Positions 52,784 through 57,898 of a stretch of 63,946 nucleotides of DNA are shown piece after piece. Position 1 is the first letter of the stretch. Each line of letters opens with the position of its first letter. The notes under the pieces were generated by a model. That model saw only the letters and a program-made list of their open reading frames with translations. It was not told where the DNA came from and did no database searches. A program made the position numbers and the translations under genes. This DNA comes from Frankiaceae bacterium (lineage in GTDB: Bacteria; Actinomycetota; Actinomycetes; JADGOV01): assembly GCA_017882785.1 (NCBI GenBank), contig JADGOV010000005.1, positions 1-63,946 of the forward strand. Direction: 5' to 3'.

Positions 52784-53425
52784 TCAGTCCCACATGGACT
52801 CGTCCAGCCCGACCGCCGCCAGCTCCTTCCGCAGCCGCGCGAGGCAGCGAGCCCGCGTCGGGCCGATGCTTCCGATCGGCATGTCCAGGGAAGCGGCCAC
52901 CTCCACGTAGCTCGGCGGCGGACTGGCCATCAACACGGTGAGCAGGCGCTGGTCACGCTCTGGGAGACGAGCCAACGCCGCCTGTACCCGCAGGTCGCGG
53001 TCGCACGCCACCGCGGTGGCTTCCGGACCACGCTGGTCGTCAGCCAACTGGAGATCGTCCAGCACGTCGCTGAGGTACTCCCTGGATCGGCTCTGAAGGA
53101 GGCGCAGGCACTCCCGGCGAACAGTGGTTGCCAGCCATACGCCCACTTTGTCCGGGTCGCGAACGCGGTCGATGTTCTCCGCCAGGCGCAACCAGGCCGT
53201 CTGCACGACGTCGGCACTGCTGGCGTCGCCGAGCCGGAAGGACCGGGCTACCGCCCACAGCAGGCCGGTGTGCCGCTCGACCAGCGACCCCCACGCCGAC
53301 TCACTGCCCGCGGCCGCCCGCCTGAGGAGGTGCCCGCTCGCCGGAGCATTCGGTGCGTCGCCCGAGGTCTCTTCGATACCGACGTCTTCCGTCGACGCGG
53401 TGACTGCTTCGCTACTGGAGTACAC
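52784..53425 (-). CDS. ECF sigma-70 factor
   Basis: Region 2 (ADVVQTAWLRL...WLATTVRRE) and region 4 (SYVEVAASLDMPIGSIGPTRARCL); AAAGGA RBS. Confidence 0.92.
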   Translation of the reverse strand: MYSSSEAVTASTEDVGIEETSGDAPNAPASGHLLRRAAAGSESAWGSLVERHTGLLWAVARSFRLGDASSADVVQTAWLRLAENIDRVRDPDKVGVWLATTVRRECLRLLQSRSREYLSDVLDDLQLADDQRGPEATAVACDRDLRVQAALARLPERDQRLLTVLMASPPPSYVEVAASLDMPIGSIGPTRARCLARLRKELAAVGLDESMWD

Positions 53426-53811
53426 GGCTTGTCCTTTCCGTCACCACGGGAGCGGCCGGCCGGCGGGGGTACGGGTGTCCGGCTCGGGCGCCGGGCGACG
53501 GACCGGCGGGCGGGAGATGCGGATGCAACGCACTTCGGCCTCCTCAACACTTGGGCGAACATTGGGCGGGATTCCCGCGACCTGTTGCGAGGGTGCGCGC
53601 CGCCCGCTCACCGCGCATTCGGCAAGCGCCTAGGGTTACCAGGCGGGGATGTTTACGACCAGCCCGTTGCCGCCCTATACGAGGCCCCGTCGTCGACGGG
53701 TCAGCTCCGCCGGTGACCAGCGGTGCTCGGGTGCCTACGGTCACGCAACGCAAGCGATCCACGGCCCCGAAAGAGTTTGGTTGCTCACCGTGAGCAGGGC
53801 AGACTCGTCAC

Positions 53812-56787: not shown

Positions 56788-56851
56788 CACCGCACACAAT
56801 GTCAGCTGTCCGGCCGCCGTCGCGGTCAACTGGACCGAGGAGAAGAACGCT

Positions 56852-57898
56852 GTGAGAATCGTGGTCTGTGACAGCGATTGTGCCTGCTGCCGCTCCGCTC
56901 GTGCGACATTCGTCAACTCGTCCAGGGGCTGCTGTGGCAGCGGATACGGCGGCCCGGAGTACGGCGGGCCCGAATACGGCGGGCCCGAATACGGCGGGCC
57001 CGAATACGGCGGGCCCGAATACGGCGGGCCCGAATACGGCGGACCCCAGAACCGCATCCCACCAACCGGCTGGCACGCCGACCCGCCGGACCCGCGGGAC
57101 CACCGTCACGAGATCGAGGCATCGAGAAGGACGCTGCCGACCGATGTCGACCTACGGGACCTGGTGGACGTCCCGGTCTATCAACAGGGGCGCTTCCGCT
57201 CCTGTACCGCGAACGCGTTGGCCGCTGCCATCCGCTATCTGGATCTGGACGGGGCAGAGGCCCTCCGGCCGTCCCGGATGTTCCTGTACTGGAACGAGCG
57301 GCTGGAGGAGCACGACGAGACGTGCAACAGCACCGTCGCGATCCGCTCCAGCCTCCGCGTGCTCAACCGGCTGGGTGTGTGCGAGGAGAAGCTCTGGCCC
57401 TATCTGCCAGAAACGCTCTGCCGGCGGCCGCCGGCCTGGGTCTATGACTACACGCGGCTGCAAGGGCGCGTCGCGTATGCCCGGGTGCCGCGGCCCGGCG
57501 AGCACCCGGACAACCTCCAGGTGACCGAGGTGCAGTACACGCTGGCCGAGCGGAAGCAGCCGGTGATCTTCGGTTTCTCGGTGCTCGAAGGCTTCGTGAA
57601 GGCCCGCCGCGACCGCGGTCGCGTCCCGGCACCGGCGACGGACGAGCGGGTGCTCTTCGGGCATGCCGCAGTCGCCGTCGGCTACCGGACGGGAGACGAC
57701 GGCCCGGAGTTCATCTGCCAGAACTCCTGGGGTCGCCACTGGGGCGACGACGGGTTCTTCTACCTCCCGGCGGCGTACTTCGCCTCCCGGTACATCACCT
57801 CCGACGTGTGGAGTCTGTGGCGGGCCAGAAGGGGCCGGCCCGGCACCGAAGCTGCTGGCGGCTCCGACTCGACGTCGGCAAGCGAAGCGGAGACGTAG
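56852..57898 (+). CDS. Papain-family (C1) cysteine protease with Cys-rich tip and YGGPE repeats, about 348 aa
   Basis: GAGGAG RBS then GTG 56852; QG...SCTANA, PSRMFLYWN.R, GHA..AVGY and NSWG..WG..G. Confidence 0.9.
   Translation: MRIVVCDSDCACCRSARATFVNSSRGCCGSGYGGPEYGGPEYGGPEYGGPEYGGPEYGGPEYGGPQNRIPPTGWHADPPDPRDHRHEIEASRRTLPTDVDLRDLVDVPVYQQGRFRSCTANALAAAIRYLDLDGAEALRPSRMFLYWNERLEEHDETCNSTVAIRSSLRVLNRLGVCEEKLWPYLPETLCRRPPAWVYDYTRLQGRVAYARVPRPGEHPDNLQVTEVQYTLAERKQPVIFGFSVLEGFVKARRDRGRVPAPATDERVLFGHAAVAVGYRTGDDGPEFICQNSWGRHWGDDGFFYLPAAYFASRYITSDVWSLWRARRGRPGTEAAGGSDSTSASEAET
56945..57049 (+). repeat. 15-bp tandem repeat x7 encoding (YGGPE)6 YGGPQ
   Basis: tacggcgggcccgaa x5 identical, with variant first and last units. 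Confidence 0.97.

What the first reader, a model, noticed from the sequence alone, without database searches (positions are those of the whole stretch)
52784..57898. ECF sigma / STAND-LuxR / repeat-bearing papain protease module
Seen: an ECF sigma with no adjacent anti-sigma gene is divergent from a 991-aa STAND-TPR-LuxR regulator, followed 64 bp later by a C1 protease with an intact Cys/His/Asn triad and no signal peptide. The block starts right after mrp, where the core gene order ends. From memory (unchecked), sigma factors with this PIGSIGPTR.RCL region 4 signature often cluster with CHAT and S8 protease genes. Inference: this is a protease-gated intracellular signalling circuit in which a papain-like enzyme and an NLR-like transcription factor fill those roles. 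I do not recognise this combination as described.
Basis: partly seen in the sequence, partly recalled or inferred. Interest (0 to 1): 0.85.

Follow-up and report, generated by a model that had tools for sequence, protein, structure and literature searches.

The report
Conserved sigma, STAND-LuxR, papain-protease cassette
Three neighbouring genes (an alternative sigma factor, a large ATP-driven sensor-regulator and an intracellular papain-type protease with a length-variable peptide repeat) travel together in a few soil actinobacteria and look like a rare variant of a protease-linked gene switch whose working is still unknown.

Summary
Window 52784-57898 encodes an ECF sigma (-), a 991-aa AAA_16/TPR/LuxR regulator (+) and, 64 bp later, a 348-aa cytoplasmic C1A protease with Gln/Cys/His/Asn intact.

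The three genes recur together in 3 genomes of 2 families with unrelated flanks and, in one, a different gene order. They are therefore a self-contained accessory cassette, not regulators of the PPTase/thioesterase cluster next door.

Of 28 other loci of this sigma clade, 25 carry a small uncharacterised partner protein, 12 an S8 protease, 9 a CHAT protease and 7 a small LuxR regulator. The cassette sigma lacks the partner in all 3 genomes.

The protease is xylellain-type (PDB 3OIS). It carries an N-terminal pentapeptide array (YGGPE or LTGPE), with 7 to 15 copies among strains about 99% identical.

Proteolytic gating is not shown. No anti-sigma, substrate or promoter motif was found.

I read it as a new variant of protease-associated ECF sigma modules. 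The STAND-LuxR protein would supply sensing and transcription, and the C1 enzyme the protease arm. Functional linkage is well supported; the mechanism is inferred. The cassette is very rare.

The parts
52784..53425 (-). ECF sigma factor (213 aa), an 'orphan' member of a protease-associated actinobacterial sigma clade. Region 4 signature is PIGSIGPTRARCL.
   Evidence: Clade context. Alignment. Tree.
53426..53811 (.). Divergent sigma/regulator intergenic region (386 bp). Holds a block of about 50 nt (53441-53490) just upstream of the sigma start that is conserved with G002.
   Evidence: No sigma-70-like promoter or inverted repeat was found.
53812..56787 (+). LAL-type STAND regulator (991 aa): AAA_16 P-loop NTPase, helical/TPR sensor region, C-terminal GerE/LuxR HTH.
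56852..56943 (+). N-terminal head of the protease (residues 1-31) with 8 Cys. Conserved in the congener G002, replaced by a Cys-free FxVSLxISGPGFST module in G008.
   Evidence: AF2 pLDDT about 50-58 with a predicted beta-hairpin.
56944..57046 (+). In-frame 15-bp tandem repeat encoding (YGGPE)x7. Copy number is hypervariable among near-identical strains.
   Evidence: Modelled as disordered, pLDDT about 35.
57047..57898 (+). Xylellain-type C1A catalytic domain: Q112 at 57185-57187, C118 at 57203-57205, H271 at 57662-57664, N291 at 57722-57724. Preceded by the family's GWxxDxPDxRD motif.
   Evidence: (PDB 3OIS, E=8.7e-87).

Best explanation
This is a self-contained accessory regulatory cassette of soil and permafrost Actinomycetota. 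It is a variant of a widespread protease-associated ECF-sigma module.

SHOWN:
- The three genes move together.
- The regulator and the protease are co-directional with gaps of 64, 49 and 26 bp, so they are probably one operon.
- The sigma belongs to a clade that normally sits with a small partner protein plus S8 and/or TPR-CHAT proteases, and often a small LuxR regulator. The cassette sigma has lost that partner.
- The protease is an intact cytoplasmic xylellain-type enzyme with a head-plus-pentapeptide-array extension of variable length.

INFERRED, my committed mechanism:
1. The STAND protein binds ATP and a ligand through its helical/TPR region, oligomerises, and through its LuxR HTH activates the cassette promoters: its own regulator-protease operon and the partner-less sigma gene.
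2. The sigma, having no anti-sigma, is controlled by its amount and redirects RNA polymerase to an unknown regulon.
3. The C1 enzyme is the proteolytic arm that S8/CHAT provide in the parent system. It is held latent or tethered by its N-terminal head and repeat array and acts on a still unknown cytoplasmic substrate.
For: - Trio conserved in G002 (same genus: sigma 72%, regulator 66%, C1 about 63-68% identical) and in G008 (another family: 37%, 36%, 42%). In G008 the order is rearranged to regulator-C1-sigma, with the sigma convergent.
- Flanks are unrelated in the three genomes.
- The cassette is sporadic. The C1 family is found in 11 of 401 genomes of the class and the repeat-bearing form in 3 of 401. 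None of the other 4 genomes of G008's genus that were searched matched.
- The association is specific. 0 of 79 distant C1 loci carry the sigma. 0 of 8 other C1 loci in the class carry the sigma or the regulator. 0 of 27 next-best regulator loci carry sigma, C1, S8, CHAT or the partner.
- Sigma-clade context in 28 non-cassette loci (+-1.5 kb): partner 25, S8 12, CHAT 9, small LuxR 7. The cassette has none of the partner: 0 of 3.
- Catalytic residues are invariant, and the core is modelled with most 10-residue blocks at pLDDT above 90.
- Pieces of all three genes occur in contigs of RNA libraries from 3 studies. This is a hint only, because DNA can be present in such libraries.
Against: - No experiment and no computed interaction ties the protease to either regulator.
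- With no partner or anti-sigma in the cassette, the classical reason for a protease (destroying an anti-sigma) is missing.
- No shared promoter motif could be found for the sigma clade. No LuxR-type inverted repeat was found in the intergenic regions of the window.
- The cassette sigmas are not shown to be monophyletic. G008's is a long branch of uncertain placement.
- G008's regulator is no closer to the window's (36%) than generic family members are (32-41% in the best BLAST segment). The G008 cassette could therefore have been assembled independently.
- Only three genomes, two of them congeners, carry the cassette.
Confidence: 0.45

Rival explanations
1. Conflict or abortive-infection system. 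The STAND protein senses an invader, and the C1 protease is a latent death or arrest effector unleashed on activation. The sigma reprogrammes transcription, as in CRISPR-linked protease/sigma systems.
For: - Distribution is sporadic and transfer-like, with variable flanks.
- The parts fit: a STAND NTPase plus a protease, and a hypervariable repeat.
- The parent sigma clade sits with CHAT and subtilase proteins; the S8 matches a PADLOC 'subtilase' model at E=1.4e-16.
- Published protease-to-ECF-sigma defence systems exist: introduction of PMC12642450 and passages of PMC8195603.
Against: - The sigma and the C1 match no PADLOC model. The regulator matches only through its HTH.
- Flanks are housekeeping or biosynthetic genes, not defence islands, and no integrase was seen among the flanking genes scanned.
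- The STAND protein carries a DNA-binding output rather than an effector domain.
- The canonical sigma system largely follows taxonomy, like a vertically inherited housekeeping regulator.
Confidence: 0.2
2. Pure transcription cascade with the protease as regulated cargo. The regulator switches on the sigma and a cytoplasmic protease that simply degrades or recycles proteins under some stress. No regulatory proteolysis is involved.
For: - The protease lies in the regulator's operon.
- The sigma lacks any partner, so control by amount is the simplest reading.
- The wider xylellain-type family is a stand-alone enzyme with no recurrent neighbours in 79 loci.
Against: - It does not explain why only the repeat-bearing C1 subclade is tied to these regulators.
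- It does not explain why a sigma clade that is linked to proteases in 12 (S8) and 9 (CHAT) of 28 other loci keeps a protease of a different fold here.
Confidence: 0.2
3. The LAL regulator is the cluster-situated activator of the neighbouring PPTase/thioesterase/HAD/acyl-CoA-dehydrogenase biosynthetic genes. The sigma and the protease are bystanders.
For: - LAL regulators commonly control polyketide clusters (recalled, not from a call).
- Biosynthesis-type genes start 19 bp after the protease.
- The same order is kept in a metagenome contig of the same species (L126).
Against: In G002 and G008 the trio is kept while the biosynthetic genes are absent from the flanks. There the neighbours are an aminotransferase, a reductase, MMPL and GltX in G002, and signal peptidase, PMT, RsmI and MetG in G008.
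Confidence: 0.05
4. Chance adjacency of three unrelated genes.
For: AAA_16-TPR-LuxR regulators and this sigma clade are both common in the class: 201 and 164 of 401 genomes.
Against: - The rare C1 subclade is next to both regulators in 3 of 3 genomes that have it.
- The regulators are otherwise never near each other or near a C1: 0 of 27 regulator loci, and 0 of 28 sigma loci carry the large regulator.
Confidence: 0.05

Closest known systems
Actinobacterial TPR-CHAT / S8 peptidase / ECF sigma / small-partner module (seen here, e.g. G000:C64 = L149; I found no description of it in print)
   Same: Same sigma clade (47-57% identity, same G[SA]IGPTRxRxL region 4). A cytoplasmic protease and a TPR-containing protein are adjacent, and a LuxR-type HTH protein is a frequent neighbour.
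   Different: C1A replaces S8 and CHAT. The TPR protein carries a STAND NTPase and a LuxR HTH instead of a caspase-like domain. The small two-helix plus beta-sandwich partner is missing. A Cys conserved in region 4 (PERCQ) is lost.
Xylellain (Xylella fastidiosa cysteine protease, PDB 3OIS) and the 'short bacterial C1A (xylellain-type)' peptidases
   Same: Catalytic domain homologous over its whole length (E=8.7e-87). No signal peptide or I29 propeptide. Short N-terminal GWxPDxPDxRD segment. The type is named in PMC10380794 (passages read).
   Different: Carries a 65-100-residue N-terminal head plus pentapeptide array found only in a tiny subclade, and has fixed regulatory neighbours. I recall, from no call, that xylellain's N-terminal segment covers the active site. 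This was not checked here.
LAL / MalT-type STAND transcription factors
   Same: AAA_16 P-loop with Walker A and B, a long helical/TPR sensor region and a C-terminal LuxR HTH, about 1000 aa. The family is in 201 of 401 genomes of the class.
   Different: Always followed by the repeat-bearing C1 gene and accompanied by the sigma. 0 of 27 other family members show this. The ligand is unknown.
CRISPR-linked protease/sigma switches: CalpL-CalpT-CalpS and Craspase Csx29-Csx30-RpoE
   Same: A cytoplasmic protease genetically coupled to an ECF sigma (introduction of PMC12642450; search listing).
   Different: No CRISPR, CARF or SAVED domain in the three proteins. No anti-sigma or Csx30-like substrate gene. 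Different protease fold (papain, not Lon or CHAT). Cleavage is not shown.
EACC2-caspase neighbourhoods with an ECF sigma and a TPR (DUF1822) protein (Kaur et al. 2021, PMC8195603; passages read)
   Same: The theme of protease + TPR protein + ECF sigma, proposed there to end in transcription control.
   Different: No caspase, EACC2 or DUF1822 was detected here. The TPR protein is a STAND-LuxR factor.

Membership tests
ECF (group IV) sigma-70 factors | Sigma region 2 and region 4 only, about 200 aa | tested here: met
   PF04542 scores 49 bits (cut-off 24). TIGR02937 scores 69.9 (cut-off 42.9) over residues 44-202. Length 213 aa. The G008 orthologue also hits PF04545.
ECF (group IV) sigma-70 factors | Assignment to a named ECF group (ECF Hub classification) | not testable with these tools
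   Best NCBIfam equivalog is SigM at 71 bits, far below its cut-off of 190. It is not ShbA/ECF40 by genomic context. The main text of Casas-Pastor 2021 does not mention CHAT, LuxR or peptidase, and its supplements are closed.
Protease-associated actinobacterial sigma clade (S8 / TPR-CHAT / small partner) | Sigma sequence clade with G[SA]IGPTRxRxL in region 4 | tested here: met
   44-57% identity to clade members. Sits inside the clade's radiation.
Protease-associated actinobacterial sigma clade (S8 / TPR-CHAT / small partner) | Small partner gene (150-185 aa) directly downstream of the sigma | tested here: not met
   Present in 25 of 28 clade loci but 0 of 3 cassettes. The single copy in each of the three genomes lies at the canonical locus. 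No hidden homology in the regulator or the C1.
Protease-associated actinobacterial sigma clade (S8 / TPR-CHAT / small partner) | Adjacent S8 and/or CHAT protease | tested here: not met
   Neither is in the cassette. A C1A enzyme is present instead.
Peptidase C1A, xylellain type | Papain fold with the Gln/Cys/His/Asn catalytic set | tested here: met
   PF00112 E=9.4e-11. 3OIS E=8.7e-87. Q112, C118, H271 and N291 invariant in 58 sequences. AF2 core confidently modelled, most 10-residue blocks at pLDDT above 90.
Peptidase C1A, xylellain type | Short form without signal peptide or I29 propeptide | tested here: inconclusive
   No I29 or other Pfam domain. The N-terminus MRIVVCDSDC has no hydrophobic core, by inspection. 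No signal-peptide predictor was available. The N-terminal extension is atypical for the type.
LAL / MalT-like STAND regulators | N-terminal P-loop NTPase with Walker A and B | tested here: met
   AAA_16 E=1.7e-29. GDAGIGKT and VIVLEDIHWAD read in the translation.
LAL / MalT-like STAND regulators | Helical repeat (TPR/SUPR) sensor region | tested here: inconclusive
   TPR_12 scores only 18.6 bits against a cut-off of 30.1. The region is conserved among the three orthologues. No structure was predicted.
LAL / MalT-like STAND regulators | C-terminal LuxR/GerE HTH | tested here: met
   PF00196 E=1.2e-17. PDB hits to GerE, NarL and VraR HTH domains.
Protease-gated ECF sigma switches (CalpL/T/S, Craspase, RIP of anti-sigmas) | A sigma-sequestering partner that the protease cleaves | tested here: not met
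   No partner gene in the cassette. No pro-sequence or extra domain on the sigma.
Protease-gated ECF sigma switches (CalpL/T/S, Craspase, RIP of anti-sigmas) | Demonstrated cleavage that releases sigma activity | not testable with these tools
   Needs biochemistry or genetics.
Cluster-situated LAL regulators of biosynthetic gene clusters | Conserved adjacency to the biosynthetic genes | tested here: not met
   PPTase, TE, HAD and ACAD homologues are absent from the G002 and G008 flanks.
RRNPP-type peptide-sensing TPR-HTH regulators (considered for the novel reading) | Secreted pro-peptide with signal sequence, and a TPR receptor fused directly to an HTH | tested here: not met
   No signal peptide on the repeat-bearing protein, by inspection. 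The receptor here has an added STAND NTPase and a C-terminal HTH.

The most novel reading that the evidence does not exclude
The pentapeptide array is itself the signal or the docking element of an NLR-like proteolytic switch. Two versions are open.

(a) The C1 enzyme cuts its own array. A bulky Tyr or Leu at the start of every unit would fit the P2 preference of papain-type enzymes. The released xxGPE pentapeptides would then be read by the TPR region of the STAND-LuxR protein. That would make an entirely intracellular, copy-number-tunable peptide feedback loop, reminiscent of RRNPP systems but without secretion.

(b) The array docks several protease molecules on the oligomerised STAND protein, activating them by induced proximity, as apoptosomes and inflammasomes do with caspases.

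Copy-number changes (7 to 15 units among strains about 99% identical) would then set the gain of the switch.
Probability: 0.08. Interest if true: 0.9.

Novelty: new variant of a known kind. Interest (0 to 1): 0.6.

Why it matters
- Protease-coupled ECF sigma switches have become known mainly from CRISPR-linked defence. Here a widespread but, as far as my searches show, undescribed actinobacterial module (TPR-CHAT, S8, sigma, small partner) has a rare offshoot. In it a papain-type protease and a STAND-LuxR factor replace the usual parts and the presumed sigma partner is lost.
- Comparing the two forms offers a natural experiment on what the protease does in these systems.
- The cassette would give a first regulatory context to the functionally obscure xylellain-type intracellular cysteine proteases.
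- The in-frame, rapidly changing pentapeptide array on a cytoplasmic enzyme is unusual in its own right.
- The organism occurs in many cold-soil, peat and permafrost metagenomes, so the switch may matter in those habitats.

Tried and rejected
- Complex prediction of C1 (348 aa, 58-row alignment) with the sigma (213 aa): verdict 'no answer', score 0.00 in two runs, controls not run. This is neither for nor against binding.
- Anti-sigma hunt. ORFs of 25 aa or more around the sigma give only non-coding-looking frames. The weak hit of the small partner inside G002's regulator gene (E=0.002) was not confirmed by profile comparison (probability 0.1%). Partner against C1 gave nothing.
- The regulator's TPR region against the TPR of the TPR-CHAT protein, and C1 against S8: no similarity.
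- Promoter search. The best bipartite word pair upstream of 28 clade sigmas occurs in 9 of 28, the same as in shuffled controls (7-9). The sigma-70 and terminator scan found 0 sites. Inverted repeats in the window's intergenic regions: 0.
- Fused ('Rosetta stone') forms of the C1 domain of 610-2000 aa: none by word search, which is weak evidence. The long hits in the representative library are multi-C1 zinc-ribbon proteins unrelated to the cassette.
- Recurrent neighbours of the wider C1 family: none beyond lineage-specific ones. The best cluster is in 14 of 79 loci, mostly related Firmicutes.
- Metagenome scan: only two further contigs, both the same species as the window.
- PADLOC: no model for the sigma or the C1.
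- Fold search of the small partner: 0 PDB matches at E<=0.001. The Atlas gives 'hypothetical protein'.
- Earlier findings of this scan: none by sequence or by words.
- Literature searches for the combination found no description. The ShbA/ECF40 paper concerns another clade.
- RNA-library contigs stop at the repeat and leave parts of the regulator uncovered. Such gaps carry no meaning.
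Full report
ANATOMY

The window is about 70% G+C. It lies on contig C183 of a 3.2-Mb, 230-contig genome that is 99% complete.

- After mrp (51393-52529, ParA/NUBPL plus FeS_assembly_P) comes a 254-bp gap without coding signal.
- Next is a 213-aa ECF sigma on the minus strand (52784-53425).
- A 386-bp divergent intergenic region follows.
- Next is a 991-aa AAA_16/helical-TPR/GerE regulator (53812-56787).
- After 64 bp comes a C1A protease.

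The long ORF from 56597 is an artefact of G+C content. Codon-position GC and a GAGGAG ribosome-binding site put the protease start at GTG 56852, giving 348 aa.

The protease has four parts:
- a Cys-rich head (8 Cys in 31 residues);
- seven YGGPE units encoded by a near-perfect 15-bp tandem repeat;
- the family's GWxxDxPDxRD motif;
- a catalytic domain with Q112, C118, H271 and N291, all invariant in 58 homologues.

An AlphaFold2 model gives most blocks of the core a pLDDT above 90, the repeat about 35 and the head about 55. Downstream on the other strand lie a PPTase, a thioesterase, a HAD hydrolase and an acyl-CoA dehydrogenase.

IS THE TRIO MORE THAN ADJACENCY?

The word-indexed protein search found only 10 relatives of the protease among 5471 candidates. 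Three carry an N-terminal pentapeptide array: P0006 (92% identical), P0007 (66%) and P0008 (41%, LTGPE units).

The wider xylellain-type family is large: at least 457 loci in the species-genome collection and 10,336 representatives at E<=1e-3. In the best 79 loci:
- 0 carry a relative of the sigma and 1 has only a LuxR HTH;
- no neighbour family recurs beyond related lineages, the best being in 14 of 79.

In the window's class, 11 of 401 genomes have the family at E<=1e-25, and only G000, G002 and G008 have the array-bearing form. All three carry the full trio:
- G002 (same genus) has the same arrangement, with a 49-bp regulator-protease gap.
- G008 (another family) has regulator, protease (26-bp gap), then the sigma convergent and overlapping the protease's 3' end.

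The flanks are unrelated:
- G000: mrp and biosynthesis-type genes.
- G002: aminotransferase, NAD_binding_4 reductase, MMPL and GltX.
- G008: signal peptidase, protein O-mannosyltransferase, RsmI and MetG.

The eight other C1 homologues of the class (33-39% identical) have neither regulator nearby. One of these eight, L095, comes from the unpublished genome G033. Three lie on contigs of only 2.5-6.4 kb.

The other four genomes of G008's genus that were searched gave no C1 match. The cassette therefore behaves as a rare, transferable unit. That disposes of both the 'BGC regulator' reading and the chance reading.

THE SIGMA'S RELATIVES

164 of 401 genomes of the class hold a close relative (E<=1e-18), usually one per genome at 45-57% identity. 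I inspected the 28 best non-cassette loci with 1.5 kb on each side. The counts are by tblastn and named by Pfam:

| Neighbour | Loci of 28 |
|---|---|
| Small 150-185-aa partner gene just downstream | 25 |
| S8 peptidase | 12 |
| CHAT protein, often with N-terminal TPRs | 9 |
| LuxR (GerE) protein of about 250 aa with an unassigned N-terminal part | 7 |

G000 itself has such a canonical module on contig C64: TPR-CHAT, S8, sigma, partner (L149). G002 has one directly after its mrp (L147).

The small partner is uncharacterised:
- no Pfam or PADLOC family;
- 'hypothetical' in the Atlas;
- a confident model of a two-helix hairpin plus an Ig-like sandwich, with no PDB match at E<=0.001.

That it is the anti-sigma is my inference from its position.

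G000 and G008 each have one copy, at their canonical locus. G002 has one there plus a weak match inside its regulator gene that the profile comparison did not confirm. None lies in the cassette. Neither the regulator nor the protease hides a homologous segment.

The cassette sigmas have the ordinary two-domain architecture and no conserved N-terminal extension. They have lost a Cys that the canonical members keep in region 4.

In a maximum-likelihood tree the G000 and G002 cassette sigmas form a clade (100/100) inside the unresolved canonical radiation. G008's is a long branch, so neither a single nor a double origin can be decided.

THE REGULATOR

Full-length relatives with the same architecture are in 201 of 401 genomes. 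The 27 next-best loci have none of sigma, C1, S8, CHAT or partner beside them. So it is an ordinary LAL-type STAND factor recruited to this cassette. Its TPR region is not specifically related to that of the TPR-CHAT proteins.

THE PROTEASE EXTENSION

Unit counts differ among strains whose flanking DNA is 98.8-99.6% identical: 7 in the window, 13 in P0006, 14 in L126 and 15 in L127, with Glu/Gln variants.

- G002 has 11-12 YGGPE units behind a different Cys-rich head.
- G008 and its relative P0019 have two Cys-free modules, each FxVxLDISGxGF... plus 4-7 LTGPE units.
- P0020 and P0030 have short degenerate versions.

What is conserved is a small head, then a Gly-Pro-acidic pentapeptide array starting with Tyr or Leu, then the enzyme.

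HOW IT PROBABLY WORKS

Shown: linkage, probable regulator-protease co-transcription, an intact enzyme, an orphan sigma of a protease-linked clade, and a variable array.

Inferred, in order:
1. The STAND factor is the sensor and the transcriptional activator of the cassette.
2. The sigma, lacking its usual partner, is controlled by its amount.
3. The protease provides the proteolytic arm that S8/CHAT provide in the parent module, and is kept latent or positioned by its head and array.

I put 0.45 on this reading. The main rivals are a conflict or abortive-infection role (0.2) and a plain cascade with the protease as cargo (0.2). The classical 'protease destroys the anti-sigma' scheme cannot apply as such, because no partner is encoded.

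Attempts to go further gave nothing usable; they are listed in the Tried and rejected section.

EXPRESSION AND HABITAT

Leaving out the four runs that may be the source sample, 10 further DNA runs from 9 studies of soil, peat and unlabelled metagenomes hold at least 0.90 of the sampled words.

Contigs from RNA libraries of three studies cover the whole sigma gene plus 119 nt upstream (X15: 52784-53544, no differences), and also pieces of the regulator and of the protease. Because DNA can contaminate such libraries, this is only a hint of expression.

COMPARISON WITH WHAT IS KNOWN

- The catalytic domain is a member of the xylellain-type short bacterial C1A peptidases (PDB 3OIS; type named in PMC10380794, passages read).
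- The regulator is a LAL/MalT-type STAND factor.
- The sigma is an ECF sigma whose formal group I could not determine.
- As a system, the nearest published analogues are the CRISPR-linked CalpL-CalpT-CalpS and Craspase-Csx30-RpoE switches (introduction of PMC12642450) and the caspase/ECF-sigma/TPR neighbourhoods of Kaur et al. 2021 (PMC8195603, passages read). The cassette shares their theme but none of their defining parts.
- Five full-text searches found no description of this trio, or of the actinobacterial S8/CHAT/sigma/partner module. The ECF Hub group descriptions in closed supplements may hold one.

VERDICT

The mechanism remains inferred. I rate it a new variant of a known kind (protease-associated ECF sigma modules), rare, and moderately to highly interesting.

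Tallies include unpublished genomes (G009, G017, G025, G033, G037, G261, G302, G371). Among single loci, only L095 (G033) rests on one of them.

Noticed in passing
G000:C64 = L149 7158-12217 (outside the window): The genome has a canonical copy of the parent system: TPR-CHAT (880 aa, -), S8 peptidase (444 aa), a paralogous ECF sigma (47% identical to the window's) and a 150-aa partner. Relatives of this sigma are in 164 of 401 genomes of the class. I found no description of the module in print.
   Followed up: partly
L147 (G002:C18) 2124-9242: In the congener G002 the mrp orthologue (89% identical) is followed by an alpha/beta hydrolase, CHAT, S8, sigma and the small partner. So the canonical module sits at the position where G000 has the C1/STAND-LuxR cassette. 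This could be a replacement or an insertion hotspot after mrp.
   Followed up: partly
L149 11765-12217 and alignment A6: The clade's small partner protein is an uncharacterised family. It has a conserved N-terminal motif (aDPxP..V..AA+AAF..R.lDAELAEL..DS). The model shows a two-helix hairpin plus an Ig-like beta-sandwich (mean pLDDT 87.5) with no significant PDB match.
   Followed up: yes
window 57917-62289 (- strand): A 4'-phosphopantetheinyl transferase, a thioesterase, a HAD-family hydrolase and an acyl-CoA dehydrogenase in a row look like the edge of a polyketide or nonribosomal-peptide-type gene cluster. The same order is kept in metagenome contig L126.
   Followed up: no
window 53441-53490: A block of about 50 nt immediately upstream of the sigma start is far better conserved with G002 than the rest of the intergenic region. 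It may be a leader or regulatory element. An RNA-library contig (X15) runs from the sigma stop through this block to 53544.
   Followed up: partly
window 52569-52793 (-): A 74-aa ORF overlaps the sigma stop by 10 nt (GTGGGACTGA) and begins with a hydrophobic stretch. This is the position where an anti-sigma would sit, but its codon-position GC (0.67/0.63/0.68) argues against coding. G002 and G008 have other genes there.
   Followed up: partly
L149 9808-11142 (C-terminus) versus window 56852-56943: The S8 peptidase of G000's canonical module ends in a Cys-rich tail (…GGCGCGCCAG…) that resembles the Cys-rich head of the C1 proteases of G000 and G002 (CACC…CC, CCGCGC). It could be a shared metal or redox element, or only GC-rich low complexity.
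   Followed up: no
alignment A8, column of P0001 residue 158: A Cys conserved in region 4 of the canonical sigmas (PERCQRLL) is Asp in the G000 and G002 cassette sigmas and His in G008's. This change goes together with loss of the partner gene.
   Followed up: no
proteins P0018 and P0025 (representative library): Proteins of 1000-1200 aa with two or three xylellain-type C1 domains separated by many zinc-ribbon-like CxxC pairs. An unusual architecture, unrelated to the cassette.
   Followed up: no
window 52500-58000 in public runs: Near-identical DNA is held in many independent soil, peat and permafrost metagenomes (10 DNA runs from 9 studies at 0.90 or more of the sampled words, besides the possible source). 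The host is therefore a widespread cold-soil actinobacterium.
   Followed up: partly
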